Shown: positions 10,786 to 27,310, counted from the first letter of the stretch. The stretch is DNA of 64,000 nt from an uncultured Solirubrobacterales bacterium (GCA_963797835.1 CAWCRN010000026.1:208310-272309), one strand, 5' to 3'. The notes: generated from the sequence alone by a model not told the origin. A program made the numbers and translations.

Positions 10786-10816
10786 GCTACCCCGTACGGG
10801 TCGGTTTGCCTCCCCG

Positions 10817-10833: not shown

Positions 10834-10950
10834 ATTTCGCCACTAGGGCGTAACAGGTCAACCCGCCCTCGCCGCGAGGCTTCCGCGGCCATACGAACGT
10901 CTTGATCGAGGGGCAGCGCTCTCTGCTGCCCGTTCACAGAGGGAGAAATA

Positions 10951-11940: not shown

Positions 11941-11979
11941 GCCAGACCAGAGCCGGCTTCAAAGCCAAGCAAAGTAGCG

Positions 11980-12922
11980 GTGGAAGCCGGCACACACGTG
12001 ACAGGCGCGACGCCGGGAGGGCTTGGCCCTCTCGGCGTCAAGCGCCGCCGCTGGGGCGAGGAGGTCATCCGTGCCCTCCTGTTCCTCGCGGCCGCGATCT
12101 CGGTCCTGACCACCGTCGGGATCCTGGTCGCCCTCCTGGCGGAGTCGATCCCGTTCTTCCAGGAGGTGGGGACCAGGTTCTTCACCGACGACAACTGGAC
12201 CCCTCTGTTCGCCGACCCGCAGTTCGGGATCTGGCCGCTCCTGAACGGCACCTTCCTGATCACTGGAATCGCGATCCTGGTCGCGGTGCCGCTCGGCTTG
12301 GGCGCGGCGATCTACCTGTCCGAGTACGCCTCGCCGCGACGTGCGCAAGACCGTGAAGCCCATCCTCGAGGTGCTCGTGGGCGTGCCGACGGTGGTCTTC
12401 GGCTACTTCGCGCTCGCCTTCGTCACGCCCGAGATCCTCCAGGCGGTCGGGATCGACGTCCAGATCTACAACGCGCTGTCGGCCGGCCTCGTGATGGGGA
12501 TCATGATCGTCCCCACCATCGCCTCGATCTCCGAGGACGCGATGCGCGCGGTGCCCCAGGGTCTGCGGGAGGGCGCCTACGGGATGGGCGCGACCAAGCG
12601 ACAGGTCGCGACGCGCGTGGTCTTCCCGGCGGCGATCTCCGGGATCGTGGCCTCGATCGTGCTCGGCGTCTCTCGCGGCGTCGGCGAGACGATGATCGTG
12701 CTGCTGGCCGCGGGCCTTCAGCCCAACACCGGGATCAACCCGCTCGAGGGGTACGCGACGATCACCACCTTCATGGGGGCGGCCGCCGACGGCGACAACC
12801 CCGCGGGCTCGATCGGCTACGAGTCGATCTTCGCCTGCGGCCTGATCCTGTTCGCGCTGACGCTGGTCATGAACATGATCGCGATCCGCTTCGTTCGCAG
12901 GTACCGGGAGGTGTACGAGTGA
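11980..12922 (+). pseudogene. pstC: phosphate ABC transporter permease PstC, one net +1 frame break (or sequencing error)
   Basis: Frame 1 reads ...AIYLSEYASPR up to about 12339. The conserved continuation VRKTVKPILEVLVGVPTVVFG...EAA loop runs in frame 2 from 12341 to 12922. Confidence 0.85.
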
Positions 12923-13842
12923 CCCCTCCGCCTCCTCCACCGTCGGCCGACGCCGCCACGGTCCGGATGCCGGGGACGCAGTTCGTCCGCGAACGCTCGA
13001 CCCGCCTCAAGGAGCTGGGGTTCGCGGTCCTCCTGTTGACGGCGCTCGGCATCGCGCTGCTAGTGCTGGTCGTGCTCCTGGTGGACGTTGCGATCGAGGG
13101 CGCCGGCAGCCTCAGCGGCGAGTTCCTCACCGGGACCCCGTCGCGGGTGGACCCGGCGAGCTCCGGCATCGCGCCCGCGATCATGGGGACGCTATGGCTG
13201 ATGCTCGTCTGCGCCGCGTTCATCATCCCGGTGGGCGTCGCCAGCTCCGTCTATCTGGAGGAGTACGCCGACCGCGAGAACCGCTTCGCACGTTTCGTCG
13301 AGGTCAACATCCAGAACCTCGCGGCGGTGCCGTCGATCGTCTACGGCGTGCTCGGCCTCGCCTTCCTGGTCCGCGGCCCGCTCAGCCTCGGAAACGTGGT
13401 CCTGGCCGGCGGGCTGACGCTCGGCCTGCTGGTGCTGCCGGTGGTGATCGTCGCCGGGCGCGAGGCGATCCGCGCCGTCCCGCCCTCGATCCGTGAGGGT
13501 TCGATGGCGCTTGGGGCGACCCAGTGGCAGACGATCTGGAAGCAGGTGCTGCCGGCGGCGATCCCCGGGATCGCGACCGGGACGATCCTCGCGCTGTCTC
13601 GTGCGATCGGGGAGACGGCACCCCTCATCGTGGTCGGAGCGATCGCGTTCGCGACCACCGCCGACACCGGCCTACTCCAGGAGTTCTCGGCGCTGCCGAT
13701 CCAGATCTTCGGTTGGACCGCCGATCCCCAGGAGGAGTTCAAGTCGCTCGCTGCCGCAGCGATCATCGTCTTGATGGCGATCCTGCTGAGCATGAACGCG
13801 ATCGCGATCTGGCTACGAAATCGCTACGAACAGAAGTGGTAG
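12919..13842 (+). CDS. pstA: phosphate ABC transporter permease PstA
   Basis: The GTG at 12919 overlaps the pstC stop (GTGA). Conserved SIREGSMALGATQWQT loop. It is the second half of the 620-aa read-through ORF. Confidence 0.9.
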   Translation: MTPPPPPPSADAATVRMPGTQFVRERSTRLKELGFAVLLLTALGIALLVLVVLLVDVAIEGAGSLSGEFLTGTPSRVDPASSGIAPAIMGTLWLMLVCAAFIIPVGVASSVYLEEYADRENRFARFVEVNIQNLAAVPSIVYGVLGLAFLVRGPLSLGNVVLAGGLTLGLLVLPVVIVAGREAIRAVPPSIREGSMALGATQWQTIWKQVLPAAIPGIATGTILALSRAIGETAPLIVVGAIAFATTADTGLLQEFSALPIQIFGWTADPQEEFKSLAAAAIIVLMAILLSMNAIAIWLRNRYEQKW

Positions 13843-14752
13843 GTGAGTAATGTGGAACGCACCGTGACCGACCCCGAGCAGACGAAGCCCGAGTCCGAAC
13901 GCGAGACGCACGGGTTCGACCTGAGCGAGACCGTGGCCGAGACCCACCCAAGGGGGGCCGAGGGGTTGTCGAGGGAGCCGATCTTCGAGCTGAAGGACGT
14001 CAGCGTCCGCTACGACGGCAACCTCGCCGTCGACGACGTCAGCGCCGACTTCTACCGCAACCAGATCACGGCCCTGATCGGGCCGTCCGGCTGCGGCAAG
14101 TCGACCCTGATCCGCTGCCTCAACCGCATGAACGACCTGATCCCGGCCGCGAGCGTCGACGGCGAGATCATCTACCACGGCCAGAACCTCTACGACGGAC
14201 AACGTCGACCCGGTCGAGGTGCGCAAGCGGATCGGCATGGTCTTCCAGAAGCCGAACCCGTTCCCGAAGTCGATCTACGACAACATCGCCTTCGGTCCCC
14301 GCATCCTCGGGATGGAGGGCGACATGGACGAGATCGTCGAGCGGGCACTGCGCGGCGCGGCCCTCTGGGACGAGGTGAAGGACCGGCTCGAGGACAATGC
14401 CTTCGGGATGTCGGGCGGCCAGCAGCAGCGCCTCTGCATCGCGCGCTGCATGGCGGTCAACCCCGACGTGATCCTGATGGACGAGCCATGCTCGGCCCTC
14501 GACCCGATCTCAACCGGGAAGATCGAGGACCTGATGATGGAGCTCAAGGAGCGCTTCTCGATCGTCATCGTCACGCACAACATGCAGCAGGCGGCGCGCG
14601 TCTCGGACATGACCGCGTTCCTGATCGTCGAGCTGGACTCGACCGAGAAGAACCGCTGGGGCCGGATCATCGAGTACGACGTGACCGAGAAGATCTTCAC
14701 GAACCCCTCCGACAAGCGCACCGAGGACTACGTGTCCGGGAAGGTGGGCTGA
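13843..14752 (+). pseudogene. pstB: phosphate ABC transporter ATPase PstB, one net +1 frame break (or sequencing error)
   Basis: Walker A GPSGCGKST in frame 1 up to ...YHGQNLYDG (about 14197). [22 protein letters not shown]...LSGGQQQRL...ILMDEP continues in frame 2. Confidence 0.85.
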
Positions 14753-15459
14753 TGCCGACCGAGACTCGCATCGCCTATCAGGAAGAGCTCCAGAAGCTGG
14801 AGGCGCACGCGCTCGAGGGCCTCGACATCGTGGTCGCCTCGATCGACCGCACGAACGAGGCCGTCCAGCACCAGGATGTCGAGCTCGCGGAGCTCGTGAT
14901 CGCGTCCGACGACGTGATCGACGGCCGCTACCTCGAGGTCCACCAGTCGATTCTCACCCTGCTCGCCACCCAGGCGCCCGTGGCATCCGATCTGCGGCTG
15001 ATCGCGGCCCTCCTGCACGTGATGAAGTGCATGGAGCGCATAGGCGACCAATGCGTGAACATCGCCAAGCTGATCCCGATCGCCGGCCACGAGCCGCCAG
15101 CCGACGAGCAGATGCTGAGCGACATCCTGACGATGGGCACGGCCGTGCGCGAGCAGGTCCGCCAGTCGAAGCGGGCGTTCGAGAACCGCGACGTCGAACT
15201 CGCCCGCGACCTCGTCCGCCAGGACGACGTGGTCGACAACCTCAACCGCGAATGCTTCCGGCGCGCGATTCAGATCGGCGACTCCGAGGACCGCCGCGAG
15301 TGGGCGATGACGATGATGCTGATCGCCCGCGCGATCGAGCGCATCGGCGACAACTCGGTGGACGTCGGCGAGCAGGTCGCGTTCCTTGTCACCGGCCTCT
15401 TCCGGGAGTTCGAGGACGCCTCGCACCCCAGCGAGGGCCTCGGCCAGATCCCGGCGTAG
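14752..15459 (+). CDS. phoU: phosphate signalling complex protein PhoU
   Basis: The ATG overlaps the pstB stop. Two PhoU repeats (DDVIDGRYLEVHQ..., DDVVDNLNRECFR...). Confidence 0.9.
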   Translation: MPTETRIAYQEELQKLEAHALEGLDIVVASIDRTNEAVQHQDVELAELVIASDDVIDGRYLEVHQSILTLLATQAPVASDLRLIAALLHVMKCMERIGDQCVNIAKLIPIAGHEPPADEQMLSDILTMGTAVREQVRQSKRAFENRDVELARDLVRQDDVVDNLNRECFRRAIQIGDSEDRREWAMTMMLIARAIERIGDNSVDVGEQVAFLVTGLFREFEDASHPSEGLGQIPA

Positions 15460-16441: not shown

Positions 16442-16503
16442 CGGGCTTCCTGCGCCATTGAGCGCATCCGCCTGTTCTGCCAAGATCGAACCCTGGGTCT
16501 TTC

Positions 16504-17409
16504 ATGCTCTGCGCCGCGATCGACATAGGCTCGAACACGACCCGGGTGCTCGTCGCCGAGCCCGAGGACGGGCAGCTCCGAACGGTGATGGAGCAGCGCG
16601 CCTACACGCGGATAGGCAAGGACTCGAAGCAGGACGGGGCGATCTCGGCGCCAAAGGTGGCCGAGGTGGCGGAGGTCGTGTCGACGCAGGTCCGCCTCGC
16701 CGAGGAGCTGGGCGCGAAGGCGATCCGAACCGTGGCCACCGCGGCCATCCGCGAGGCGACCAACACGGACGAGGTGGCCACGGAGATCGGCCGCGTGGCC
16801 GGGGTCGACGTCGAGGTGCTGAGCGAGGAGGAGGAGGGCCGGCTCGCCTTCATCGGCGCGACGAAGACGCTGGGGCATCCGGTCGAGGGGGAGGTCGCGG
16901 TCGTCGACGTCGGCGGGGGCTCCTCGGAGATCGTGTTCGGCACGGTCGCGGGAGGGGTCAGCCTGGTCCGGTCGTTCAAGATCGGATCCGGCCAGCTCAC
17001 CGAGGACCACGTGACCCAGGATCCCCCCTCCGCCTCGGAGATCCGGGCGCTGCGCGACGCGATCGCCGACGCTTTCGCGGAGGTCGAGGTCGAGCGGCCC
17101 GAGCAGGCGGTGGCCGTCGGCGGCAGCGCCACCTCGCTGCGCAAGCTGGTGGGGGCGGTGCTCGAGTACGAGACCTTGGAGCGGGGGGTCCGGGTGCTGA
17201 GCGGCGACCCGATCGCCGACGTCGCGCGCCGCTTCGAGCTGGACCCGCGCCGGGTGCAGATGCTCCCGGCCGGCGTGCTGCTGCTTGAGAAGCTCTCCGA
17301 GCTGTTGGGCCAGCCGCTCCAGATCGGCAAGGGCGGGTTGCGCGAGGGCGTGATCCTCACGCTGCTCAACGGCGCCGCCAACGGCGCTCACACGGCCATA
17401 GCGGCGTAG
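16504..17409 (+). CDS. ppx: Ppx/GppA-family exopolyphosphatase (short form)
   Basis: 301 aa. N-terminal AAIDIGSNTTRVLV ASKHA-fold motif. Confidence 0.85.
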   Translation: MLCAAIDIGSNTTRVLVAEPEDGQLRTVMEQRAYTRIGKDSKQDGAISAPKVAEVAEVVSTQVRLAEELGAKAIRTVATAAIREATNTDEVATEIGRVAGVDVEVLSEEEEGRLAFIGATKTLGHPVEGEVAVVDVGGGSSEIVFGTVAGGVSLVRSFKIGSGQLTEDHVTQDPPSASEIRALRDAIADAFAEVEVERPEQAVAVGGSATSLRKLVGAVLEYETLERGVRVLSGDPIADVARRFELDPRRVQMLPAGVLLLEKLSELLGQPLQIGKGGLREGVILTLLNGAANGAHTAIAA

Positions 17410-17595
17410 CGCCCACGGGGCCGCACCGAGGGAGAGCGAGCCGGGCGTTTGCGGATTGAGTGAGCGATTGACCACCTATACGGTGGTGAACCCTGCACTC
17501 ATCGACGGAAGCCGTCGACGCTTCCCCTACCCAGCCCATGGCGGTCTGCGGACGAGCGTTCACGGTTGCGCCCTCGGTGGTTACCCTCACTCCTC

Positions 17596-18147
17596 ATGGC
17601 GAGGGCGAGACCTATTCCCGACCTTTCGGCTGAGGAGCCCATGTCACTGGGGGCGGCCCGGATCCTTGCGGTCCGCACCGAGGAGCTGCTCGAGCACTCG
17701 CGCGACGTGCTCGACCTGGGCGACATCGAGCGCTTGCACTCGATGCGGGTGGCGACCCGTCGGCTTCGGGCCGCGCTCGAGGTGTTCGAGGCGTGCTTCC
17801 CCCGTAAGACCCACCGGACGGTGCTCGGTGAGGTGAAGGAGCTGGCGGATGCCCTGGGGGAGCGGCGCGACCGCGATGTCGCGATCGGCTTCCTGAGCTC
17901 CTTCTCCGAGCAGCTCTCGGCGCCGGACCGGCGCGGCATCTCCAGCCTCGTGGTGACCCTGCAGCTCGAGCAGGCCGACGCCAACGAGGCGTTGCGCCCC
18001 TACGTCGCCCGCGAGCGGGTGGAGAGCCTGTGCGAGCGCCTGCGCGAGCTGGCGGAGGACGCCCGTGCGACCGAGGGGCCGACGGAGGCGAGCGTCGAGG
18101 ACCTGTTCGCCGACTCGGCCGGGAACGGGGCGGGGGCGATCGGATGA
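17596..18147 (+). CDS. CHAD-domain protein (first of a coupled pair)
   Basis: CHAD signature LHSMRVATRRLRAALEVFEACFP. The start is uncertain (ATG 17596 or ATG 17641). Confidence 0.7.
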   Translation: MARARPIPDLSAEEPMSLGAARILAVRTEELLEHSRDVLDLGDIERLHSMRVATRRLRAALEVFEACFPRKTHRTVLGEVKELADALGERRDRDVAIGFLSSFSEQLSAPDRRGISSLVVTLQLEQADANEALRPYVARERVESLCERLRELAEDARATEGPTEASVEDLFADSAGNGAGAIG

Positions 18148-18861: not shown

Positions 18862-20343
18862 ATGAGGCGGACCGGCTTCGGCAGGGGCTTGGCGGCGATG
18901 GTCGCCGCGATGGCGCTCGCCGCCGTGGGGCTCCTTGCACCCGCCGCACACGCGGGCGTCGACACCACAGGCTCCCAGGGACTCGGCGATTCCTTCTTCC
19001 CGAAGTCCGGAAACGGCGGCTACAACGTCGAGCAGTACACCGTTGTCCTTCGCTACGACCCGGAGTCGAACCGGTTCCTCGGCGGCACGCGAACGCTCAT
19101 CGGCGCCGACGTCACACAGCCGGACGGGCTGACCCGGTTCAACCTCGACTACCGCGGCCCCGCGATCCGCAAGGTGAAGGTCGATGGTGAGGTGGCCTCC
19201 TTCTCGCGCAAGGGGCAGGAGCTGAGGATCGAGCCGGACTCGCTGCTCCCCCCGGGTGCGGACTTCCTGGTCGACGTGATCTACAGGGGTAAGCCCAAGC
19301 CCACGCGCGACCCAGACGGATCGGTCGATGGCTGGGTGCCCACCTCCGACGGAGCCGTCGTGGTCGGCGAGCCACGGGGCAACCCCACGTGGTTCCCGTC
19401 GAACGACCACCCCTCCGACAAGGCGCTGATCGAGGTCTCGGTCGAGGTCCCCAAGCCCTACAAGGCTGTCTCCAACGGCACCCTGGAGGACGTCTTCGAC
19501 CTCGGCGACACGCGCGAGTTCCGCTGGTCGAGCGACGACCCGATGGCCACCTACCTGGCGACGGCGACGGTCGGGAAGTTCGACACCGAGGAGGTCATCG
19601 ACCCGCCCGGGAGCACCAGCTACTCCTACGTCGCGGTCGACAAGCGCTTCACCGGCGACGGCGCGATCGACCGCAACCTCGAGATCATCGACCACTTCGA
19701 CGAGACCCTCGGCCCGTACCCGTACGACGAGACCGGCGGGATCGTCGACACCGCCCCCTCAGTGGACTTCGCCCTCGAGACCCAGACCCGCCCGATCTAC
19801 CCGGGGCCGCCAGGGGACGTCCTCGTGGCGCACGAGCTGGCGCACCAGTGGTTCGGCAACGAGATCACTTTGGCCGACTGGTCGGAGATCTGGCTGAACG
19901 AGGGCTTCGCGACCTGGGCCGAGTGGTGGTGGGAGGCAGCTGACGGAGGCCCGACGATGGGAGAACGCCTCGTTGACTTTTGCGCCTTCGGGCCCTTCAA
20001 CCCCCCGCCGGGGGACGTCCCGGGCCCTGAGCAGATGTTCTTCGACAGCGTCTATGAGCGCGGCGGCGCGGCGCTCGAGGCCCTGCGGGAGCTGATCGGC
20101 GATACCGAGTTCTTCGCCATCCTCGCGACCTGGACCGCCCAGGACCCGTACGGCTCGGTCACCACCGACGAGCTCGAGGATCTCGTCAAGGACACGTCGA
20201 GCGTCCCCGAGCAGGACATCGAGGACCACTTCGACGACTGGGTCTTCGAGGACGGCAAGCCCCAGGGCTGTTCGGCACCGAGATCCCGCTCAGCCGAGCT
20301 CGACGCCGCGTTCGGCGTACCGGAGCTCTCGCTTCGGCGCTGA
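18862..20343 (+). CDS. secreted M1-family zinc metallopeptidase (aminopeptidase N-like)
   Basis: Signal peptide MRRTGFGRGLAAMVAAMALAAVGLLAPAAHA. HELAHQWFG-x18-E (WLNEGF) zinc site. Confidence 0.85.
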   Translation: MRRTGFGRGLAAMVAAMALAAVGLLAPAAHAGVDTTGSQGLGDSFFPKSGNGGYNVEQYTVVLRYDPESNRFLGGTRTLIGADVTQPDGLTRFNLDYRGPAIRKVKVDGEVASFSRKGQELRIEPDSLLPPGADFLVDVIYRGKPKPTRDPDGSVDGWVPTSDGAVVVGEPRGNPTWFPSNDHPSDKALIEVSVEVPKPYKAVSNGTLEDVFDLGDTREFRWSSDDPMATYLATATVGKFDTEEVIDPPGSTSYSYVAVDKRFTGDGAIDRNLEIIDHFDETLGPYPYDETGGIVDTAPSVDFALETQTRPIYPGPPGDVLVAHELAHQWFGNEITLADWSEIWLNEGFATWAEWWWEAADGGPTMGERLVDFCAFGPFNPPPGDVPGPEQMFFDSVYERGGAALEALRELIGDTEFFAILATWTAQDPYGSVTTDELEDLVKDTSSVPEQDIEDHFDDWVFEDGKPQGCSAPRSRSAELDAAFGVPELSLRR

Positions 20344-22561
20344 GCACGACCACTCGCCCTCGATCCAGCTGACCGTCGTGCCGTCCGCCAGGCGCGCCTT
20401 GGCCCGCCCGCCGGCCGGCTGGCCCCAAAGCGTCGCCTCCAGGGGGCGCTCCGCCTCGGGGGTGTCGCCCAGCCCCCGCGCCACGTGCCCGGCGGGGTGC
20501 GTGACGACGATCGAGCCGCGGCGAACCCAGACCGGGATCCTGTCCCGCGGCGCGGCGGCTGTCAGCTCGTGGCCGCCCGCGACGGGCTCGCCAGTCCAGA
20601 AGTCGAGCCACTGGCCCCTCGGCAGGTGGACGGACCGATCGAGCGCGCCCTCCTCCAGGACCGGCGCCACCCACAGCGCCGGGCCAAAGCCGTAGGCGTC
20701 GGCGATCTCCCAGCCGCGGGGATCGGAGGGATCGGTCAGGCAGAGCGGGCGGACGATGGGAAGCCCGCTGCGTTCGCACGTTGCGGCGGAGGCACGGATG
20801 TAGGGGACGAGGCGCTCGTGCAGCAGCACGTAGTCGCGGTAGGTCGCGAGCGTGCCGTCGTCGTAGCGCCACGCCTCCTGCGCGAAGCGGCCGTGGGCCT
20901 GCATCAGCGGCGTGAAGCATCCGAACTGAACCCAGCGCAGCAGGAGCTCGCGCGGGCAGCGCTCGACCAGGAGCTTGCCGAGGTAGCCGCCCACGTCGTG
21001 GGACCAGTTGGAGAAGCCGCTGGCGGCCGCCGTGAGCGTCGCCGCCACCAGCGTCCTAAGCGACCAGAAGTCCGACGCCTGGTCGCCGCCCCACAGCAGG
21101 CCCGTGGCCTGCTGGCCGGTCCAGCCGCAGCGCCCGAACAGGACGCCCGCGCCCGGGTGGACCTCGTCCAGCACCTCCTGCATGGTCTCGCGGTAGAGGC
21201 GCCCGTAGTCCCAGGCCAGCTCGGCGCCGGTGCGTCCGTCGGCGAAGCGCGAGTCGGGCGGGAAGTAGTAGCCCTCGCCGTCGTCGGCCTTGATCCCCTC
21301 GACCCCCATCTCCAGCACGCCGCGCGCCTGCGCCTTCCACCAGCGCCGGGCGGCGGCCGAGGTGAAGTCGATCGGCGAGCCCGTGCCCATCCACCAGCGC
21401 GCGACGAACGGGTCGCCGCCGGGCACGCGGACGAGGTGCCCGCTGATCGCCGCCTCGGAGTAGTTCGAGGCCGGCTGGCGGTGAAGGCTCTCCGACTGGG
21501 CGTCGCGGGGGTACTGGCCGTCGGCCGACTCGAGGTTCGTCCACGGCGTCACCCAGACCACCGTCCGAACGCCCTCGGCCCGCATCCTGCGGATCATCCC
21601 CTCGGGGTCGGGGAACTGGTAGGGGTTGAAGCGCCAGGTGTTGTACTGGGTCTCCCAGGGCGAGTCGATCACGATGGCGTCCAGCGGAAGCGAGTGCTCC
21701 TCGTAGCCGTCGAAGTCCTCCTCGACGTCGCGCTGGTGCTCGTAGATGTCGCGGCTCTTCCAGTGGCCGTACGCCCACTCCGGGAGGACGGGCGGAATGC
21801 CGGTGAGGCGCAGGAACCGGCGCAACCGCCCGGCCGGGGTGGGGTCGCACAGCAGGTGCAGGCGAAGCGGCCCCGCGTCGGCACGCTGGGAGACCGCGAT
21901 CGGCTCACCCAGGTCGAACTGGAGCCCCGGCCCGTCGGTCTGCGCCCAGACGGCGGTCCCGGCGCTCGACAGGACCCAGGGCATGGGCGAGTAGTCGCCC
22001 TGGGGGATGCCGCCCTCCTCGAGCAGGTCCGGCGGGCAATCGGGCCCCGTGTATCGGCGGTCGGCCCCCAGCGTGACGTGCCTGCCGGTCTGGTCGAAGC
22101 GCTCGCCATGTCGCGCTCCGAGCCCCGTCAGGTGCTCCGCCGGGTGCGCACGCCAGGTGGCGTCGAGGCGGTAGGCATCGGCCGCGCGCAGCTCGGCGAG
22201 AACGCGTTCGCGGCCCGGCAGGGAGACCCGCAGCTCGAACGATCGTCCTCCCTCCAGCTCGCCCGCGACGGTCGCGATCCCCTCGGAGAGCTCCAGCAGT
22301 TCGGCCGAGGCCGGCTCCTCGAGGGGCCCGGCATCGTCCTCCTCGGGGATCACCCCCTCCGAGAGCTGGATGAAGCGATCGGCGCCGGTTCCGCCCCGGG
22401 CGCCGAAGCGCATGTCCTCGATCAGAGCGACCCCGCCGCGGCTCGAGCCGCAGGCGCAGCGGATCGAGGCGCACCTCCACCCCCAGCTCACCGCGGCGGA
22501 GCTCGACGGCCCCGGCTTGATTGCGGGTCTCGACCACATCCGCTTCCAGCCTGGTGGCCAC
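20290..22561 (-). pseudogene. glycoside hydrolase family 31, one net +1 frame break near the N-terminus (or sequencing error)
   Basis: Main frame carries GH31 motifs (VIDSPWETQYNTWRF, VEGIKADDGEG, WGGDQASDF). The N-terminal beta-domain (ATRLEADVVETRNQAGAVELRRGELGVEVRLDPLRLRLEPRRG) lies in another frame and joins at about 22445. Confidence 0.8.
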
Positions 22562-22616
22562 CAGCGCAGCATGCGTGGCGTGGGCACGCGGCGGGTTGCG
22601 ATCCGGTGAACCGGTG

Positions 22617-22655
22617 TTCACCGACCATTCACCCCTGATTTGCAGGTCGTTTACG
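22617..22655 (+). promoter_or_regulatory. PhoP-box-like array (4 hexamers phased at 11 nt)
   Basis: TTCACC-N5-TTCACC-N5-TTTGCA-N5-TTTACG, ending 61 nt upstream of the PHP::GT4 start. An inverted GGTGAA lies at 22605-22610. Confidence 0.45.
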
Positions 22656-22715
22656 TCTCGGCGCTCGCCGCAGGGCACGCTGTGGGCGACAAGTGAATCC
22701 AATGGGAGGACACCG

Positions 22716-25050
22716 ATGACCTCACCGACGACCACCCGGGTCGACATGCACTGCCACTCCACCGCCTCCGAGCTCGGCAAGCTCGGAATCCAGCGCAGCA
22801 TGGGGCTGCCGGAGTGCGCCACCCCTCCTGCGGAGGTGTACGAGCTCGCGAAGTCGCGCGGGATGGACTTCGTCACGATCACCGACCACGACACGATCGC
22901 CGGCTGTCTGGAGATCGTCGAGCGGCCCGACGTCTTCGTCTCCGAGGAGCTCACCACGTGGTTCAAGGACGAGCCGCAGGCGGTCCACGTGCTCTGTTAC
23001 GGCATCACTCCCTCCGACCACGAGTTCCTCCAGGCCCACGCCCGCGACCTCGAGACCTGCGCCGCCTACCTCCACGAGCGCGAGATCACCTGCGCGCTCG
23101 CGCATCCCTTCTTCCACGTCGAGGCTCCGCTCGAGGCGCGCCACCGCCGCCGCCTGGCCGAGCTGTTCGGCGTCTGGGAGGTCCGCAACGGGTCGCGGGC
23201 ACGCGAGCTGAACATGCCGGCCGCGCTCTACATCGACACGCACGGAGGCACCGGCATCGCTGGCTCCGACGACCACGCCGGCGTCGACATCGGCCGCACC
23301 TGGACGGAGACTCCGTCCGCGTCGACGCCGGAAGAGTTTCTGGCCCACATCGGGCGGGGAGAGGCCACCGCCCGCGGCGACCAGGGCTCGGCCGCCAAGT
23401 GGGCGCACACCGCGCTCGCGCTGGCCAGCCGGGCGCTGACGGCCGGGGGCGGCGAGGGTGGCGAGCCGATCGTCCTCGGCCCCCAGCACGTGATGATGCT
23501 GGCCGAGCGCGTCGTGGCCGACGGCGAGGAGCGCGGCGGCGAGGACGGCGGCGACCTCGGCCCTGCGGAGGGCCGGGCTCTGCTGCGCGCCTGGCTCGAG
23601 TCCGTGGGGCTCGACGGCCAGAACTGCCCCGACGGGATCGTCGCCTACATGAAGGCCAACGGGTTCAGCCACGCCGATCTCTACCGGCGCGCGAGGCGCA
23701 TCCATGAGAAGCGCCTCGCCGAGGCAACCGAGCGGCTCACCCACGCCGCAACGGCGGGTGAGGGGTACGGCGAGGCGGCCAAGGCGCTGTTCGACGCCTG
23801 CCTCCCAGCCGTGCCGTACGTGCCCTCGACCGCGATCCTCGCCAACGAGAAGGCGAAGCTGACCGCTCGCGAGGGCGAGCCGCGCAGGGTTGGCCTGATC
23901 GTCGACGCGGCAGGCTCCATGCACGGCGTCACCCACACCGTCGAGCGCATCCGCGAGCTCGGCGTGCCGGGCTACGACGTCGAGGTGATCGGAACCGATC
24001 CGCGCGTCGACCGCCGCCTCCCGGCCGTCGCCGAGGTGGACGTCCCCTATTACGCCGGGCTCCGGGTCGGCGTGCCGAGCGTGCCGGGGCTGGTCGAGAC
24101 GATCGCCGACGGCCGCTACGAGCTGCTGCACCTGGTCTCGCCCGGGCCCGGCGGGCATCGGGGCCGCCGTTGCGGCGCGGATCGGCGGCACGCCGATCTG
24201 CGGGAGCTACCACACCGAGCTGGCCGCCTACGCTGGGGTCCGCGCCGCTGATCCGCGGATCGAGGCGGGGATGCGGATGGCGCTCTCGGTGTTCTACGGC
24301 CAGTGCGAGGTCGTGCTGTCCCCCAGCCCGGCCTCCGATCGTTCGCTTGCCGCGCTCGGCATCCAGCCCGAGCGAATCGGCCGCTGGGCCCGCGGCGTCG
24401 ACATCGCCCTGTACGAGGGCGCCCGCCGCGACCCCGGTGCCTTCCCGGGAGAGGTCAAGGTGCTCTACGCGGGTCGCCTGACCAAGGAGAAGGGCTCCGA
24501 TCTCTCGACCGAGTCCTTCATTCGGGCGCACGAGCGCGATCCGCGCCTGCACCTGCTGCTGGCCGGCGGCGGGCCCGAGGAGGACGAGCTGCGCGCTCGC
24601 CTGGGCGCCCGCGCCACCTTCCTCGGCTGGCTCGATCGCAGCGAGCTCGCGACCGCCTACGCGAGCGCCGACATCTTCCTCTTCTGCTCGCAGACCGACA
24701 CCTACGGCCAGGTGATCGCCGAAGCGCAGGCGAGCGGCCTGCCGGTCGTCGCCGTCGACGAGGGCGGCCCCGCCTCGCTGATTCAAGACCGTCAGACCGG
24801 CTGGCTCTGCGAGCCCGACGCGAACATCATCGCGGCCGCGGTCGCGCAGCTCGCCGCCTCGTCCTTCCTGCGCGAGCGGATGTCGCGCGCCGCGATCGAG
24901 TCGGTCCGGGGCCGCACCTGGGAGGTCGCGATGGAGCAGCTCGCCCAGGGCTACGACCGCGCCCTCGGCGGCGGCGAGCCCGCCAGCCGCAAGCCCTGGG
25001 AGCGAGCGCCGCGCACGGGCGCGCCCGCGCCGCTGGTCCACGCGGCCTGA
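22716..25050 (+). pseudogene. PHP-domain phosphoesterase fused to GT4 glycosyltransferase, one net +1 frame break (or sequencing error)
   Basis: RBS GGGAGGA followed by ATG 22716. PHP motifs MHCHS, ITDHD, AHPF and GSDDHAG. GT4 part: ...LHLVSPGP|AGIGAAVAARIGGTPICGSYHTE (frame change about 24150), KGSDL, EAQASGLPVVAVDEGG. Confidence 0.8.
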
Positions 25051-25066
25051 AGGACCTCGCCCGCGG

Positions 25067-25114: not shown

Positions 25115-27310
25115 TTGGAGAAGTCCTTGGAGACCAGTGAGACAGACGCGATAACGACCGGCACGGTCAGCGGCACGGGGAACGGCGCCGGCCTCACTGG
25201 GCGGGAGCAGGCGTCGCCTGACCTGGAGGACCCGTCGCTCTACTTCAACCGCGAGCTGTCCTGGCTCGATTTCAACGACCGGGTGCTCCAGCTCGCGGAG
25301 GACCGGTCGGTGCCGCTCCTGGAGCGCGTCAAGTTCTGCGCGATCTGGGAGTCGAACCTCGACGAGTTCTACATGGTGCGGGTGGCGAACCTCCAGGACC
25401 AGGTCGAGGCGGGCGTGGACGCCCGGGGTGCCGACGGGCTGAGCGCGGCGGAGCAGCTGCATGCGATCCGCCGGCAGGTGATCGGCCAGCGTGAGCGCAT
25501 CGAGCGCTGCTGGACCGGCGAGCTGAAGCCCGCGCTGGCCGAGCACGGGATCCGGCTGATCGCGCCGGCCGACGCCGACGCCGCGCTCGTGGGCGACCTC
25601 GAGCGCCTCTTCCGGGCGCAGGTCTTCCCGGCGCTTACGCCGCTCGTGATCGGCCTCGGGCGGCCGTTCCCCTACATCTCGAACCTCTCGCTCAGCCTCG
25701 GCGTGCTCCTGCGCGACCCCGACCAGGACGTCGAGGTGCTGGCGCGCGTCAAGGTGCCGAAGGAGCTCCTCGGCCGCTTCCTCCGAGTGAACGGCGACGA
25801 GACCACGATGGTCCCGCTCGAGGACCTGATCGCCGCCAACCTGGAGAGCCTGTTCCCGGGGATGGAGGTCCTCGACCACTCCTTCTTCCGGGTCACCCGC
25901 GACACGGACTACGACGTCTCCGACGAGGCGGACGACCTGATGGAGGCCGTCGAGGAGGAGCTTCGCCGCCGCCGCTTCGGTGAGGTGGTGCGCCTCGAGG
26001 TGGAGCGCGGGATGAGCCCCCGCCTGCGCGAGCCGCTGGTGTCGGCGCTCGGGATCAAGGACGACGAGGTCGACGAGTTCGACGGCCCGCTCGACCTCTC
26101 CGACCTGTGGGCGATCCACGGGCTCAAGGGCTTCTCCGACCTGCGCGACCCGCCCCACACCGGCGTCACGCAGCCGCGCCTGGTCGGCGAGGACGGCAAG
26201 GACCCCGACGTCTTCGCCGCGATGCGCGAGGGCGACATCCTCGTCCACCACCCCTACGACTCGTTCACGACCTCGGTCGATCGGTTCGTAAAGCAGGCAG
26301 TCGCCGACCCGGACGTGCTCGCGATCAAGCAGACCGTGTACCGGACCAGCTCCGACTCGCCCCTGGTTCCGGGGCTGATCGAGGCCGCCGAGCGCGGCAA
26401 GCAGGCCGTGTGCATGGTGGAGCTGAAGGCGCGATTCGACGAGAGCGCGAACATCAAGTGGGCGAAGAAGCTGGAGCAGGCGGGCGTGCACGTCGTCTAC
26501 GGCATCCCGTCGCTGAAGACCCACTGCAAGTGCGTGCTGGTCGTCCGCCGCGAGGGCGACGGCGTCCGCCACTACGTGCACATCGGGACCGGCAACTACA
26601 ACCCGAAGACGGCGCGCATCTACACCGACGTTGGCCTGTTCACGGCCGACCCGGACATCGGCTCCGACGTCGCCGAGATGTTCAACTACCTGACCGGGTA
26701 CGCGAGGCCTCGGAGCTATCGCAAGGTCAAGGTGGCCCCGTTCAATCTGAAGGAGACGATCCTGGAGGAGATCGAGAGGACGATCGCCTCGCACTCGCCG
26801 TCCCAGCCCGCCCGTATCCGGCTGAAGATGAACTCGCTGCTCGACGCGAAGTCGATCCGCGCCCTCTACCGCGCGTCGCAGGCCGGGGTGGAGGTCGAGC
26901 TGAACGTTCGCGGGATCTGCGCCCTGCGGCCCGAGGTGCCGGGCGTGTCGGAGAACATCGCCGTGACCTCCGTGGTCGGGCGCTTCCTCGAGCACTCGAG
27001 GATCTACTCCTTCGAGCGCCCCGGCGAGGACGAGAGCATCTACTTCGGCTCGGCCGACCTGATGCCGCGGAACCTCTACAACCGGGTGGAGCTGCTCGTT
27101 CCCATCGAGGACGCAAGGGTGCGCGCCGACCTCCTGGACGTCCTCGACCGCTCGCTCGCCGACAACACCAACGCCTGGGAGCTCCGCGCCGACGGCAGCT
27201 GGGAGCGCCGCCGCCCGGACGGCGATCCGCGCAACGTCCAGCGCCAGCTGATCGAGCGCCACGCGGCCCGCGTCTCGGAATCCGCGACGCTCGAGACCGT
27301 CAAGCGCTGA
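25115..27310 (+). CDS. ppk: polyphosphate kinase 1
   Basis: 731 aa. N-terminal YFNRELSWLDFNDRVL, middle and two PLD-like C-terminal domains. The TTG start is approximate. Confidence 0.9.
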   Translation: MEKSLETSETDAITTGTVSGTGNGAGLTGREQASPDLEDPSLYFNRELSWLDFNDRVLQLAEDRSVPLLERVKFCAIWESNLDEFYMVRVANLQDQVEAGVDARGADGLSAAEQLHAIRRQVIGQRERIERCWTGELKPALAEHGIRLIAPADADAALVGDLERLFRAQVFPALTPLVIGLGRPFPYISNLSLSLGVLLRDPDQDVEVLARVKVPKELLGRFLRVNGDETTMVPLEDLIAANLESLFPGMEVLDHSFFRVTRDTDYDVSDEADDLMEAVEEELRRRRFGEVVRLEVERGMSPRLREPLVSALGIKDDEVDEFDGPLDLSDLWAIHGLKGFSDLRDPPHTGVTQPRLVGEDGKDPDVFAAMREGDILVHHPYDSFTTSVDRFVKQAVADPDVLAIKQTVYRTSSDSPLVPGLIEAAERGKQAVCMVELKARFDESANIKWAKKLEQAGVHVVYGIPSLKTHCKCVLVVRREGDGVRHYVHIGTGNYNPKTARIYTDVGLFTADPDIGSDVAEMFNYLTGYARPRSYRKVKVAPFNLKETILEEIERTIASHSPSQPARIRLKMNSLLDAKSIRALYRASQAGVEVELNVRGICALRPEVPGVSENIAVTSVVGRFLEHSRIYSFERPGEDESIYFGSADLMPRNLYNRVELLVPIEDARVRADLLDVLDRSLADNTNAWELRADGSWERRRPDGDPRNVQRQLIERHAARVSESATLETVKR

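What the first reader, a model, noticed from the sequence alone, without database searches (positions are those of the whole stretch)
22716..25050. PHP phosphoesterase fused to a GT4 glycosyltransferase: candidate one-polypeptide phosphate-sparing remodelling enzyme
A roughly 777-aa protein combines an N-terminal PHP metal-phosphoesterase (MHCHS, ITDHD, AHPF, GSDDHAG), a helical linker and a C-terminal GT4 glycosyltransferase (E-x7-E region EAQASGLPVVAVDEGG). It is preceded by a PhoP-box-like array and followed by ppk1. GT4 enzymes often work with a dedicated phosphatase or phosphodiesterase. Examples are the sucrose-phosphate synthase/phosphatase pair, MshA plus the unidentified MshA2 phosphatase, and the Pho-regulated PlcP-Agt pair that swaps phospholipids for glycolipids. 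A fused, Pho-controlled version would be a compact analogue of such two-step systems. I know of no characterised PHP::GT4 enzyme. In this sequence the ORF carries one extra base at about 24150.
Basis: inference. Interest (0 to 1): 0.7.

Follow-up and report, generated by a model that had tools for sequence, protein, structure and literature searches.

The report
Phosphate-regulated PHP phosphoesterase–glycosyltransferase fusion gene
A real, widely conserved but uncharacterised two-enzyme fusion (a metal phosphoesterase joined to a sugar transferase) sits in a phosphate/polyphosphate gene cluster behind a conserved phosphate-starvation control site, and most likely helps the cell swap phosphate-containing membrane lipids for sugar lipids when phosphate is scarce.

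Summary
Window 22716-25050 encodes a 777-aa protein once one extra base within 24140-24151 is removed. It has an N-terminal PHP phosphoesterase with nine conserved candidate metal ligands, a helical domain with no known relative, and a C-terminal GT4 glycosyltransferase.

The frameshift is probably a sequence error. At least three other conserved genes in the window carry similar single-base frame breaks, and 75 of 80 orthologues read straight through.

The fusion is not rare. More than 120 intact homologues at 65-82% identity were found, 385 or more genome loci, and distant fusions at 26-36% overall identity, one from outside Actinomycetota. One genome carries it split into two adjacent genes.

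In Solirubrobacterales it lies in a pstSCAB-phoU-ppx-CHAD-[PHP-GT4]-ppk1 cluster. An 11-nt-phased GTTCAC repeat lies upstream of it in 74 of 80 relatives and upstream of pstS in 11 of 11. It is rare or absent upstream of ppx, CHAD and ppk1.

In other lineages, relatives neighbour GDPD, UDP-glucose dehydrogenase, an MGDG-synthase-like gene, a GT21 gene and OlsA/B-like genes.

Best reading, at confidence about 0.4: a PlcP-Agt-like phosphate-sparing glycolipid system built on a non-homologous PHP enzyme. The biochemistry is untested.

The parts
22616..22659 (+). PHO-box-like array: four 11-nt direct repeat units (GTTCACCGACC, ATTCACCCCTG, ATTTGCAGGTC, GTTTACGTCTC), 57-100 nt upstream of the start codon. 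An inverted GGTGAAC half-site lies at 22605-22611.
   Evidence: Sequence. Best match in the window to GTTCACCnnnnGTTCACC, with 1 mismatch. An equivalent array lies on the same strand, mostly 60-110 nt upstream of the orthologue, in 74/80 related loci, against 6% of random 270-nt windows. Controls: pstS 11/11, ppx 0/43, CHAD 0/21, ppk1 2/47. The Streptomyces Pho box is defined as two or more GTTCACCC repeats at 11-nt phase (PMC7244524).
22716..25050 (+). PHP-helical-GT4 fusion gene, 777 aa after removal of one extra base
   Evidence: Full-length collinear homologues of 750-830 aa at 65-82% identity.
24140..24151 (+). Interval that contains the single extra base (frame 0 to frame +1), most simply an extra G at 24150/24151
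   Evidence: Deleting any base in 24140-24151 restores the invariant SPGPAG[IV]GAA. 75 orthologue ORFs give split HSPs on the window at exactly this point.
22734..23378 (+). PHP-fold metal phosphoesterase domain (aa 7-221). Candidate ligands: H12, H14, E33, H58, E78, H91, H130, D185, H187.
   Evidence: Pfam PHP_C 24.9 bits (cut-off 21.3). NCBIfam CehA/McbA metallohydrolase 33.9 bits, below its cut-off of 80. AF2 pLDDT 90.7. Foldseek: RNase AM PHP domain 7ug9 at E 3e-8, then TM0559, BAD_1165, Cv1693 and the Pol III alpha PHP domain. Ligand conservation. E33 aligns with the SDG Asp of COG0613 proteins.
23391..23864 (+). All-helical bridging domain (aa 226-383) that ends in a conserved hydrophobic L-P-x-x-P-Y segment around P367
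   Evidence: AF2 helices. No PDB fold match. P367 is invariant. The segment is the hydropathy maximum in most members, with KD19 between 1.2 and 1.85. The natural gene split in L093 falls inside this domain.
23883..24978 (+). GT4 (GT-B, retaining-type) glycosyltransferase domain (aa about 390-754). Key residues: H499-T500, G586-R587...K592, D661-x7-E669.
   Evidence: Pfam. PDB profile hits: MshA 3c4q at E 1e-41, SPS Tll1590, BshA, PimB' and PimA. Foldseek: MshA at E 4e-17, TM 0.73.
25115..27310 (+). ppk1 (polyphosphate kinase 1), probably co-transcribed with the fusion gene
   Evidence: All four PPK domains in Pfam. It lies immediately downstream on the same strand in 47/80 loci. Only 2/47 relatives have a Pho-type repeat of their own upstream of it. 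The window has a weak one at 25066-25083.
16462..18147 (+). ppx (Ppx/GppA, 16462-17409) and a CHAD-domain gene (17464-18147). In most relatives these are the immediate upstream neighbours of the fusion gene.
   Evidence: Pfam. Synteny: ppx in 44/80 loci and CHAD in 21/80 loci.
9784..15432 (+). Pho core: OmpR-type response regulator (9784-10785), PHO box (10816-10838), pstS (10906-11940), pstC/pstA (about 12022-13900, frameshift near 12343), pstB (about 13960-14752, frameshift near 14200), phoU (14752-15432)
   Evidence: Pfam. PHO box. Frameshifts.
18901..22587 (.). M1 peptidase (18901-20343, +) and GH31 glycosidase (20290-22587, -). These are lineage-specific insertions between CHAD and the fusion gene and are probably not part of the system.
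   Evidence: Pfam. GH31 occurs in only 13/80 loci and the M1 peptidase in 4/80.

Best explanation
The gene encodes a bifunctional cytoplasmic or membrane-peripheral enzyme of the phosphate-starvation (Pho) regulon. It acts as a functional analogue of the PlcP-Agt lipid-renovation pair.

**Proposed sequence of events.**
1. Under phosphate limitation, an OmpR-family PhoP-type regulator binds the 11-nt GTTCAC direct repeats 57-100 nt upstream. It activates transcription of the fusion gene and probably of ppk1 behind it.
2. The N-terminal PHP domain uses a bi- or trinuclear metal centre (H12, H14, E33, H58, E78, H91, H130, D185, H187). It cleaves a phosphoester of a membrane phospholipid, either phospholipase-C-type or phosphatidate-phosphatase-type. 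This frees phosphorus and leaves diacylglycerol.
3. The C-terminal GT4 domain transfers a sugar from an NDP-sugar onto that diacylglycerol. The product is a phosphorus-free glycolipid.
4. The helical domain holds the two catalytic domains together. Its hydrophobic LPxxPY segment may dock the enzyme on the membrane.

**Shown here.** Domain architecture, ligand conservation, fold, family size, synteny and conservation of the regulatory repeats.

**Inferred.** Regulation by PhoP, co-transcription with ppk1, both substrates, the order of the two reactions and membrane association.
For: **Pho control.**
- The repeat array matches the actinobacterial Pho box (definition in PMC7244524).
- It is conserved upstream of orthologues in 74/80 genomes, against a 6% background.
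- The same motif lies upstream of pstS in 11/11 loci. It is found upstream of ppx in 0/43, CHAD in 0/21 and ppk1 in 2/47.

**Genomic setting.**
- The window carries response regulator-pstSCAB-phoU-ppx-CHAD-[fusion]-ppk1.
- Relatives continue with PhoU_div and Pit after ppk1.

**Functional unity of the two halves.**
- The fusion is kept down to 26-36% overall identity in other lineages, one of them outside Actinomycetota.
- One genome has it split into adjacent genes. The break lies inside the linker, and the pieces are 49% identical to a fused homologue.
- AF2 gives a single compact model with pTM 0.88.

**Lipid and phosphate-sparing context in unrelated lineages.**
- GDPD + second GT4 + UDP-glucose dehydrogenase (L085).
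- An overlapping MGDG-synthase-like gene plus an alpha/beta hydrolase (L090).
- A standalone PHP homologue in ppk1 | PHP-ppx-RR-HK-PlsC-type acyltransferase-FeeM/OlsB-like-PhoU-GT21 (L092).
- PHP-ppx-RR-HK-PhoU...PAP2, phosphate porin (L095).
- Fatty-acid desaturase | PHP-GT4-PagL (L093).
- From established knowledge: GT4, the MGDG-synthase family and GT21 all include diacylglycerol glycosyltransferases.

**GT4 detail.** The first position of the (E/D)x7E motif is Asp (D661). The same is reported for the DAG-dependent GT4 GTcp/Agt clade, in contrast to Glu316 of MshA (PMC8231724).

**PHP active site.** The full ligand set is under purifying selection across the family.
Against: - No experiment of any kind supports the proposal.
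- No PHP-family enzyme is known to me to act as a phospholipase C or phosphatidate phosphatase. The nearest solved relatives act on RNA or nucleotides (RNase AM, the pAp phosphatase Cv1693).
- The GT4 domain's closest solved relatives are MshA, SPS and BshA, which use soluble acceptors, ahead of PimA. The best NCBIfam hit, GlcNAc-phosphatidylglycerol synthase, is far below its cut-off (101 against 480 bits).
- There is no transmembrane helix. The hydrophobic segment is borderline and could simply be buried core.
- Five of the distant contexts were uninformative (L081, L083, L086, L087, L088).
- Association with ppk1 and ppx in two phyla could point to polyphosphate rather than lipids.
- I could not compare the domain directly with Agt or PlcP sequences.
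Confidence: 0.4

Rival explanations
1. Synthase-phosphatase logic, as in SPS/SPP, MshA/MshA2, GgpPS and TPS/TPP. The GT4 domain glycosylates a phosphorylated soluble acceptor such as a sugar phosphate, inositol phosphate or glycerol/glycerate phosphate. The PHP domain then removes the phosphate from the product, giving a free glycoside (a compatible solute or cofactor precursor).
For: - The closest solved GT4 relatives are MshA (E 1e-41), sucrose-phosphate synthase Tll1590 and BshA.
- From established knowledge, fused glycoside-phosphate synthase/phosphatase enzymes are a well-known pattern.
- Many distant fusions stand alone in variable contexts, as expected for a self-contained two-step pathway.
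Against: - It is not an MshA or SPS equivalog: 71 bits against 462.5, and 33 against 576.
- Of MshA's Ins-P phosphate ligands K78, Y110, T134 and R154 (residue list from my memory of Vetting et al. 2008), only the generic H-T motif is kept.
- No conserved extra basic residue appears in the acceptor (N-terminal) half of the GT domain.
- Standalone PHP homologues occur without any GT4, inside Pho/ppx operons. A dedicated product phosphatase would not explain this.
- There is no obvious reason for strict Pho control of solute synthesis.
Confidence: 0.15
2. Polyphosphate-linked enzyme. The PHP domain acts on polyphosphate, pyrophosphate or the nucleoside diphosphate released by the transferase. 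It could work as an endo- or short-chain polyphosphatase, a pyrophosphatase or an NDPase. It would function with Ppx, CHAD and PPK1, and the GT4 part would make a glucan or glycoconjugate tied to the carbon/phosphorus storage balance.
For: - The gene lies between ppx-CHAD and ppk1 in most Solirubrobacterales.
- In Acidobacteriota-type contigs the standalone PHP homologue overlaps the start of ppx and sits divergent from, or near, ppk1. The association therefore recurs in two phyla.
- From my own knowledge, PHP domains of DNA polymerases have been reported to hydrolyse pyrophosphate.
- A GH31 glycosidase is adjacent in 13/80 loci.
Against: - ppk1, ppx, pst and phoU are all Pho-regulon genes, so clustering may reflect shared regulation only.
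- None of the eight distant fused contexts carries polyphosphate genes.
- No known role links a GT4 enzyme to polyphosphate.
- GH31 is a minority neighbour.
Confidence: 0.15
3. Cell-wall polymer switch of the teichoic to teichuronic type. The enzyme would take part in replacing a phosphate-rich anionic wall polymer with a uronic-acid polymer under phosphate starvation. The PHP domain would cleave a phosphodiester or lipid-linked precursor, and the GT4 domain would act as a Tua-like transferase.
For: - L085 has GDPD + PHP-GT4 + a second GT4 + UDP-glucose dehydrogenase, reminiscent of glpQ plus tuaC/tuaD.
- There is a weak TuaC hit of 38 bits.
- A second GT4 lies directly downstream in 7/80 Solirubrobacterales loci.
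Against: - The protein has no signal peptide or transmembrane segment, whereas wall teichoic acid breakdown is extracytoplasmic.
- The cluster lacks a polyprenyl-phosphate transferase, flippase or polymerase gene.
- The same neighbours (GDPD, Ugd, GT4) fit glucuronosyl-diacylglycerol synthesis equally well.
- Neighbours that point to lipids (MGDG synthase-like, GT21, OlsAB-like) do not fit a wall polymer.
Confidence: 0.08
4. In this particular genome the gene is a true pseudogene inactivated by a +1 insertion, or it uses programmed frameshifting.
For: As given, the sequence has no intact ORF. Frame 0 terminates at 24249-24251.
Against: - Both halves keep strong coding signatures and 65-82% identity to intact homologues, with no other lesion.
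- Three other conserved genes within about 20 kb carry the same type of single-base frame break: pstC near 12343, pstB near 14200 and an aldehyde dehydrogenase near 32230. None is in a homopolymer. This points to sequence error.
- The frameshift is not conserved, since orthologues give single in-frame alignments. That argues against programmed frameshifting.
Confidence: 0.1

Closest known systems
PlcP-Agt lipid-renovation system (SAR11, roseobacters, Sinorhizobium/Agrobacterium, Pseudomonas aeruginosa; PMC4796936, PMC8231724, PMC8528852)
   Same: - A phosphate-starvation-controlled pairing of a metal-dependent phosphoesterase with a GT4 glycosyltransferase, encoded together.
- The GT4 has Asp at the first position of the (E/D)x7E motif, as reported for GTcp/Agt.
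- Relatives neighbour UDP-glucose dehydrogenase, GDPD, and ornithine-lipid-like and other glycolipid transferase genes.
   Different: - The phosphoesterase here has a PHP (beta/alpha)7-barrel. PlcP is a calcineurin-like metallophosphoesterase, so the two are not homologous.
- The two activities are fused through a roughly 160-aa helical domain instead of being separate genes.
- The GT4 part was not shown to belong to the Agt clade, because no Agt sequence was available to compare.
- Substrates and products are unknown.
COG0613 / TrpH-type PHP phosphoesterases (RNase AM/YciV 7ug9 and 9etk, Cv1693 2yb1, BAD_1165 3e0f, TM0559 2anu)
   Same: Same fold (Foldseek E 3e-8 to 6e-5). The H-x-H, D-H, E, H, H and D-x-H metal-binding motifs are shared, and JGI annotates relatives as 'predicted metal-dependent phosphoesterase'.
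   Different: - Sequence similarity is marginal: E 0.026 for the single sequence and 4e-5 for the profile.
- There is a roughly 15-residue insertion between H-x-H and the third motif-I ligand, which is Glu (P-E-C/S) instead of the Asp of S-D-G.
- The domain carries its own helical extension and is fused to GT4.
- Known members act on nucleotides or RNA, not on lipids.
MshA (D-inositol-3-phosphate GlcNAc transferase) and the unidentified MshA2 phosphatase
   Same: It is the best solved-structure match for the GT4 domain (E 1e-41; TM 0.73). A fused phosphatase would fit the missing MshA2 step in principle.
   Different: It scores 71 bits against the equivalog cut-off of 462.5. The Ins-P phosphate ligands K78, Y110 and R154 are not conserved. 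The Pho/polyP context is unrelated to mycothiol genes.
Fused glycoside-phosphate synthase/phosphatases (SPS-SPP, TPS-TPP, GgpPS, MpgS/MpgP fusions)
   Same: One polypeptide combines a GT-B glycosyltransferase with a phosphohydrolase. In GgpPS the phosphatase is also N-terminal (own knowledge).
   Different: Those phosphatases are HAD-superfamily enzymes, not PHP. Their products are osmolytes that are not under Pho control. The TIGR02472 SPS model scores 33 bits against 576.

Membership tests
PHP superfamily (Pfam clan PHP: PF02811, PF13263) | Distorted (beta/alpha)7-barrel fold | tested here: met
   The AF2 model of the window's own N-terminal 394 aa has pLDDT 90.7. Foldseek matches include the RNase AM PHP domain at E 3e-8 (TMt 0.65), TM0559, BVU_3505, BAD_1165, Cv1693 and the Pol III alpha PHP domain.
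PHP superfamily (Pfam clan PHP: PF02811, PF13263) | Conserved His/Asp/Glu metal ligands in the four to five PHP motifs | tested here: met
   H12, H14, D57/H58, E78, H91, H130, D185 and H187 are invariant or at least 90% conserved in alignments that reach 26-36% overall identity. E33 aligns with the ligand Asp of the SDG motif in 3e0f and 2yb1.
PHP superfamily (Pfam clan PHP: PF02811, PF13263) | Score above curated HMM thresholds | tested here: inconclusive
   PF13263 PHP_C scores 24.9 bits, above its cut-off of 21.3. PF02811 gives no hit at E <= 0.01 for the window protein, and scores 19.9 against 26.4 for relative P0238. NCBIfam CehA/McbA scores 33.9 against 80.
PHP superfamily (Pfam clan PHP: PF02811, PF13263) | Metal-dependent phosphoester hydrolysis | not testable with these tools
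   This needs an enzyme assay.
CAZy GT4 (retaining GT-B glycosyltransferases) | Pfam GT4 N-terminal and Glycos_transf_1 C-terminal domains above gathering score | tested here: met
   PF13439 scores 61.3 bits (cut-off 28.5) and PF00534 scores 102.6 bits (cut-off 26.4).
CAZy GT4 (retaining GT-B glycosyltransferases) | GT-B two-Rossmann fold | tested here: met
   AF2 pLDDT 89.6 and pTM 0.88. Foldseek matches MshA at E 4e-17 with TMt 0.73, and also BshA, PimA, HepE, GlgM and PglA.
CAZy GT4 (retaining GT-B glycosyltransferases) | (E/D)x7E motif, donor-phosphate R/K pair and the N-domain His | tested here: met
   D661-x7-E669, with E669 invariant. G586-R587...E591-K592 is present. H499-T500 aligns with MshA H133-T134.
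MshA (TIGR03449 equivalog) | Equivalog HMM score at or above 462.5 bits | tested here: not met
   71.1 bits, covering the C-terminal half only.
MshA (TIGR03449 equivalog) | Inositol-phosphate phosphate-binding residues K78, Y110, T134 and R154 (list from memory of Vetting et al. 2008) | tested here: not met
   In the profile alignment to 3c4q, K78 falls in an insertion, Y110 aligns to S/T475, and R154 aligns to a non-conserved position. Only T134 (= T500) is kept.
PlcP-Agt phosphate-sparing lipid renovation | Pho-regulon control | tested here: inconclusive
   In silico only. The PHO-box array is conserved in 74/80 orthologous promoters, with clean positive and negative controls. There are no expression or binding data.
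PlcP-Agt phosphate-sparing lipid renovation | The phosphoesterase is a PlcP-type (calcineurin-like) metallophosphoesterase | tested here: not met
   The domain has a PHP fold. Any relationship would be analogy, not homology.
PlcP-Agt phosphate-sparing lipid renovation | The GT4 belongs to the DAG-dependent Agt/GTcp clade | not tested
   No Agt or GTcp sequence was obtainable with these tools. The only point of contact is the shared Asp at the first motif position.
PlcP-Agt phosphate-sparing lipid renovation | Phospholipid to DAG to glycosyl-DAG chemistry | not testable with these tools
   This needs assays and lipidomics.
Sucrose-phosphate synthase / HAD phosphatase type fusions | SPS equivalog score and a HAD-type phosphatase domain | tested here: not met
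   TIGR02472 scores 33 bits against 576. The phosphatase domain is PHP, not HAD.

The most novel reading that the evidence does not exclude
The PHP module defines a new, phylogenetically broad class of Pho-regulon phosphoesterase. It occurs fused to GT4, split from it, or standalone and translationally coupled to ppx.

In its most novel form the module is not a lipid enzyme. Instead it is a polyphosphate/pyrophosphate-linked hydrolase that couples polyphosphate turnover directly to glycosyl transfer. It could do so by hydrolysing short-chain polyP, or the NDP leaving group, to drive and phosphate-balance the GT4 reaction. That would be a previously unrecognised enzymatic link between polyP metabolism and glycoconjugate synthesis.
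Probability: 0.12. Interest if true: 0.8.

Novelty: new variant of a known kind. Interest (0 to 1): 0.6.

Why it matters
**Scale of the family.** The family is large and entirely uncharacterised. A search with the N-terminal PHP and helical part alone finds 1157 cluster representatives at E < 1e-10. The family occurs fused, split and standalone. Named relatives come from Thermoleophilia, Ca. Sabulitectum, Thermoanaerobaculia/Acidobacteriota, Verrucomicrobiota, a planctomycete family and Desulfobacteraceae.

**If the proposed function is right.**
- It would be a second, non-homologous solution to the phospholipid-to-glycolipid switch that lowers the cellular phosphorus quota. So far that switch is known from PlcP-Agt in Proteobacteria.
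- It would name the enzymes for the switch in abundant soil Actinomycetota (Solirubrobacterales) and possibly Acidobacteriota.
- It would add a new substrate class to PHP phosphoesterases.

**What stands regardless of substrate.** The clean, order-wide PHO-box footprint defines a new core Pho-regulon member and a probable PHP-GT4-ppk1 operon.

**Testability.** It is directly testable, because cultured strains carry the gene (Conexibacter sp. CPCC 205762, Solirubrobacter deserti CPCC 204708).

Tried and rejected
- **Programmed frameshift or real pseudogene.** Rejected as the primary reading. The break is unique to this window, and three other conserved genes nearby have the same kind of lesion.
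- **MshA-MshA2 Rosetta stone.** Rejected on the HMM score and the acceptor-ligand test.
- **Extra inserted domain in Solirubrobacteraceae.** Matches of 3.1-3.3 kb in L047, L059, L060, L064 and L079 suggested one. The extra length comes from additional weaker GT4 matches in the same locus. In L047, L059 and L060 this is a separate second GT4 gene directly downstream. In L064 and L079 the second match found with the fusion protein lies upstream on the other strand. A search with the L079 downstream GT4 later found one downstream in those two loci as well.
- **Sigma-70 promoter and intrinsic terminator scan of 22400-25300.** Nothing usable was found.
- **Sequence search of the N-terminal half against PDB.** Only marginal hits appeared. 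Fold comparison was needed.
- **ORF clustering of the 80 loci.** The clustering was polluted by high-GC3 antisense shadow ORFs. It was used only to pick conserved downstream genes, which were then verified by Pfam.
- **Literature searches.** Searches for PHP + GT4 fusions, PHP in Pho regulons or polyphosphate, and Solirubrobacter polar lipids returned nothing relevant.
- **Distant gene contexts.** L081/L082, L083/L084, L086, L087 and L088/L089 gave no functional hint.
- **Hydropathy of the LPxxPY segment.** Borderline. It is kept only as a weak hint of membrane contact.


Full report
**1. What is in the sequence**

The window is about 71% G+C. A strong Shine-Dalgarno sequence (GGGAGG, 22704-22709) precedes ATG 22716.

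- This frame runs to about 24150 and then hits a stop at 24249-24251.
- The homologous protein continues in the +1 frame to TGA 25048-25050.
- Removing any single base in 24140-24151 yields a 777-aa protein whose junction reads HLVSPGPAGIGAA.
- In 16 intact homologues this stretch is continuous and SPGPAG is invariant.
- The simplest lesion is an extra G at 24150/24151: CCC GGC GGG instead of CCC GCG GGC.

**2. The frameshift is probably an error, not biology**

I translated ORFs from 80 related genomes and aligned them back on the window.

- 75 of them split into two collinear HSPs in different frames at about 24150.
- The same test exposed frame breaks in pstC (about 12343), pstB (about 14200) and an aldehyde dehydrogenase (about 32230, minus strand).
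- At pstC and pstB the lesion reads as a single inserted base. The aldehyde-dehydrogenase break was located but not resolved to a base.
- None of the breaks lies in a homopolymer.
- Orthologues read through in one frame.

Four hits of the same kind in conserved genes within 20 kb argue for sequence or assembly error. They argue against pseudogenisation and against programmed frameshifting. Only the reads can settle this.

**3. Domain anatomy**

*Sequence models.*
- Pfam finds Glyco_transf_4 (405-564) and Glycos_transf_1 (570-727) well above threshold, and PHP_C (165-216) just above threshold.
- NCBIfam gives a sub-threshold CehA/McbA metallohydrolase match over residues 8-217.
- NCBIfam gives only weak, non-equivalog GT4 matches. 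The best is GlcNAc-phosphatidylglycerol synthase at 101 bits against a cut-off of 480. MshA scores 71 against 462.

*Structure prediction.*
- AlphaFold2 on a close intact homologue gives one compact, confident model (pLDDT 89.6, pTM 0.88).
- It has a beta/alpha barrel (7-221), an all-helical domain (226-383) and a GT-B fold (390-754).
- The window's own N-terminal 394 aa fold with pLDDT 90.7.

*Fold comparison.*
- Foldseek places the barrel with PHP phosphoesterases: the RNase AM PHP domain at E 3e-8, then TM0559, BVU_3505, BAD_1165, Cv1693 and Pol III alpha.
- It places the C-terminal part with GT4 enzymes: MshA at E 4e-17, then BshA, PimA, HepE, GlgM and PglA.
- The helical domain has no solved relative.

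*Conserved residues.* Alignments reach 26-36% overall identity. In them H12, H14, D57/H58, E78, H91, H130, D185 and H187 stay invariant or nearly so. A profile alignment to COG0613 structures puts the family's conserved P-E-(C/S) Glu33 on the ligand Asp of their S-D-G motif. A full set of nine candidate ligands is therefore present.

*GT4 half.* H499-T500, G586-R587...K592 and D661-x7-E669 are conserved.

**4. How common is the architecture**

- A word-indexed search found more than 120 intact proteins of 750-830 aa at 65-82% identity. JGI labels them 'glycosyltransferase involved in cell wall biosynthesis/predicted metal-dependent phosphoesterase', and NCBI simply 'glycosyltransferase'.
- A scan of one genome per GTDB species returned at least 385 loci. 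The best 80 are Solirubrobacterales or other Thermoleophilia, or MAGs labelled only Actinomycetota, Actinomycetes or 'uncultured bacterium'. They include Conexibacter, Solirubrobacter deserti, Baekduia and Paraconexibacteraceae.
- An exhaustive HMMER search with the N-terminal 394 aa found 1157 representatives at E < 1e-10. The long, distant ones (38-46% identity over the PHP part) are all PHP-GT4 fusions. One is from Ca. Sabulitectum.
- A PHP-only profile additionally recovers standalone PHP-plus-helical-tail proteins of 250-460 aa. Their sources are Thermoanaerobaculia/Acidobacteriota, Verrucomicrobiota, Tepidisphaeraceae and Desulfobacteraceae.
- In one 1.2-Mb contig the architecture is split into adjacent genes: PHP of 331 aa, a 39-nt gap, then GT4 of 494 aa. 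The second gene is 49% identical to residues 351-802 of a fused homologue, and this span includes the hydrophobic linker segment. The break therefore lies inside the helical domain.

Fusion, fission and a confident single-body model together say that the two enzymes work as a unit.

**5. Genomic setting and regulation**

*Window gene order.* The region reads as follows:
- OmpR-type response regulator (9784-10785);
- pstS, pstC/A, pstB and phoU (to 15432);
- a sugar-phosphate-isomerase-like gene (minus strand);
- ppx (16462-17409) and a CHAD gene (17464-18147);
- M1 peptidase and GH31 (minus strand);
- the fusion gene, then ppk1.

*Synteny in 80 relatives.* The counts are ppk1 directly downstream on the same strand in 47, ppx upstream in 44, pstB in 43, CHAD in 21 and GH31 in only 13. 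After ppk1 many relatives continue with PhoU_div and a PHO4/Pit transporter. Seven relatives have a second GT4 directly downstream instead.

*The regulatory array.*
- The array at 22616-22659 has four 11-nt units, the first two being GTTCACCGACC and ATTCACCCCTG. This matches the actinobacterial Pho box: at least two GTTCACCC repeats at 11-nt phase (PMC7244524).
- It is the best such site in the window. pstS carries GTTCACATCCTTTTCACA at 10816-10833.
- In 74/80 related loci a phased GTTCAC repeat lies on the coding strand upstream of the fusion gene, mostly 60-110 nt from the start. The background is 6% of random 270-nt windows.
- With the same scanner, pstS is positive in 11/11, ppx in 0/43, CHAD in 0/21, GH31 in 2/13 and ppk1 in 2/47.

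The fusion gene, and not its neighbours, thus carries a conserved PhoP-type site. Given the short intergenic gap, ppk1 is probably transcribed from it.

**6. Clues to function from distant contexts**

*Eight contexts of distant fusions.*
- L085: ABC/SBP - GDPD - PHP-GT4 - GT4 - hypothetical - UDP-glucose 6-dehydrogenase.
- L090: alpha/beta hydrolase | PHP-GT4 overlapping an MGDG-synthase-family gene.
- L091: a divergent GT4 plus DUF2334.
- The other five were uninformative.

*Four contexts of non-fused homologues.*
- L092 (standalone; protein named Thermoanaerobaculia by NCBI): ppk1 | PHP overlapping ppx - OmpR RR - PAS kinase - PlsC-type acyltransferase - FeeM/OlsB-like - PhoU - GT21.
- L095 (standalone): ppk1 ... 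PHP overlapping ppx - RR - kinase - PhoU - LMW phosphatase - PAP2 - phosphate porin.
- L093 (the split form): fatty-acid desaturase | PHP - GT4 - PagL.
- L094 (standalone; Desulfobacteraceae): an alkaline-phosphatase fragment lies nearby.

*Two themes recur.* The first is Pho regulon and polyphosphate. The second is enzymes that make phosphorus-free lipids or turn over phospholipids. The glycosyltransferase families that accompany the PHP module are GT4, the MGDG-synthase family and GT21. From established knowledge, all three include diacylglycerol glycosyltransferases. UDP-glucose dehydrogenase supplies the donor for glucuronosyl-diacylglycerol, a typical phosphate-starvation lipid (PMC8231724). 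That lipid is also strongly induced in phosphate-starved M. tuberculosis (PMC12722247).

**7. Most likely mechanism**

Under phosphate limitation a PhoP-type regulator activates the gene. The PHP domain hydrolyses a phospholipid-derived phosphoester, of phospholipase-C or phosphatidate-phosphatase type, to give diacylglycerol. The GT4 domain glycosylates that diacylglycerol from an NDP-sugar. The helical domain joins the two and may contact the membrane through the conserved hydrophobic LPxxPY segment, which is the hydropathy maximum in most members.

This is the logic of the PlcP-Agt pair (PMC4796936, PMC8231724, PMC8528852), carried out by a non-homologous phosphoesterase fused to the transferase. 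I put it at about 0.4.

The regulatory and architectural parts are well supported. Every chemical step is inference, and no PHP enzyme is known to me to act on lipids.

**8. Rivals**

- **(a) Synthase-phosphatase logic on a soluble phosphorylated acceptor (0.15).** It is favoured by the MshA, SPS and BshA structural neighbours. It is weakened by three things: failure of the MshA and SPS equivalog models, loss of MshA's phosphate ligands, and standalone PHP genes in Pho/ppx operons.
- **(b) A polyphosphate, pyrophosphate or NDP-directed hydrolase coupled to glycosyl transfer (0.15).** It is favoured by the ppx and ppk1 adjacency in two phyla. It is weakened because distant fusions lack polyP genes.
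- **(c) A teichoic-to-teichuronic-type wall switch (0.08).**
- **(d) A genuine pseudogene in this genome (0.1).** This is independent of function.

**9. Comparison with the known, and novelty**

- *Membership.* PHP superfamily: fold and ligands met, Pfam PF02811 threshold not met. GT4: all tested features met. MshA, SPS and PlcP homology: tested and not met.
- *What it works like.* The best analogy is PlcP-Agt.
- *Literature.* No paper in the searchable library describes a PHP-GT4 enzyme.
- *Rating.* The architecture is already in databases under generic names, so the finding is not a new fold or a categorically new system. I rate it a new variant of a known kind. It is a large uncharacterised family with a sharply defined, testable regulatory and functional hypothesis.
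- *Interest.* 0.6.

Noticed in passing
window about 12343 (pstC), about 14200 (pstB), about 32230 (aldehyde dehydrogenase, minus strand): Three more frame breaks in conserved genes. At pstC and pstB the lesion reads as a single inserted base, and none lies in a homopolymer. They were detected because orthologous proteins align in two collinear pieces in different frames. This suggests the window carries scattered indel errors, or was altered.
   Followed up: partly
window 10816-10838 and 9895-9912 (minus strand): A canonical two-unit PHO box (GTTCACATCCT TTTCACAATTT) lies in front of pstS. A second one (GTTCACAGAAG TTTCACA) lies near the 5' end of the OmpR-type response-regulator ORF, which may mark autoregulation of a phoP-like gene or a divergent promoter.
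   Followed up: partly
window 25066-25083: A weak PHO-like repeat (GTTCACACCCG CTTGACC) lies in the 64-nt gap between the fusion gene and ppk1. It is not conserved in relatives (2/47), so ppk1 is more likely read through from the fusion gene's promoter.
   Followed up: yes
L092 7001-9609 and L095 7001-9603 (L092 protein named Thermoanaerobaculia by NCBI; L095 unnamed): A standalone homologue of the PHP module overlaps the start codon of a Ppx/GppA-HD gene. It sits beside ppk1, a two-component system and phoU. In L092 it is also beside PlsC-type and FeeM/OlsB-like acyltransferases and a GT21 gene. This looks like a compact phosphate-starvation cluster for polyP and P-free lipids.
   Followed up: partly
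L093 7001-9519: A natural split of the fusion into two adjacent genes, with the break inside the helical linker. It is flanked by a fatty-acid desaturase and a PagL lipid A deacylase.
   Followed up: yes
window 18901-22587: An M1 aminopeptidase and a divergently oriented GH31 glycosidase are inserted between the CHAD gene and the fusion gene. Most relatives lack them at this position (GH31 in 13/80, M1 in 4/80).
   Followed up: partly
L011, L025, L047, L059, L060, L064, L079, directly downstream of the fusion gene: A second, separate GT4 gene of about 385 aa lies directly downstream of the fusion gene in seven relatives, mostly Solirubrobacteraceae and Paraconexibacteraceae. No ppk1 was detected in six of these seven loci. 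A similar pair occurs in the distant locus L085.
   Followed up: partly
window 58627-59274 and 59049-60383 (+): Two high-GC3 ORFs on the same strand overlap by about 225 nt in different frames. This may be yet another frameshifted gene.
   Followed up: no
window 8601-9431 (minus strand): An undecaprenyl-diphosphate phosphatase gene (BacA/UppP) lies just upstream of the response regulator and pst cluster.
   Followed up: no
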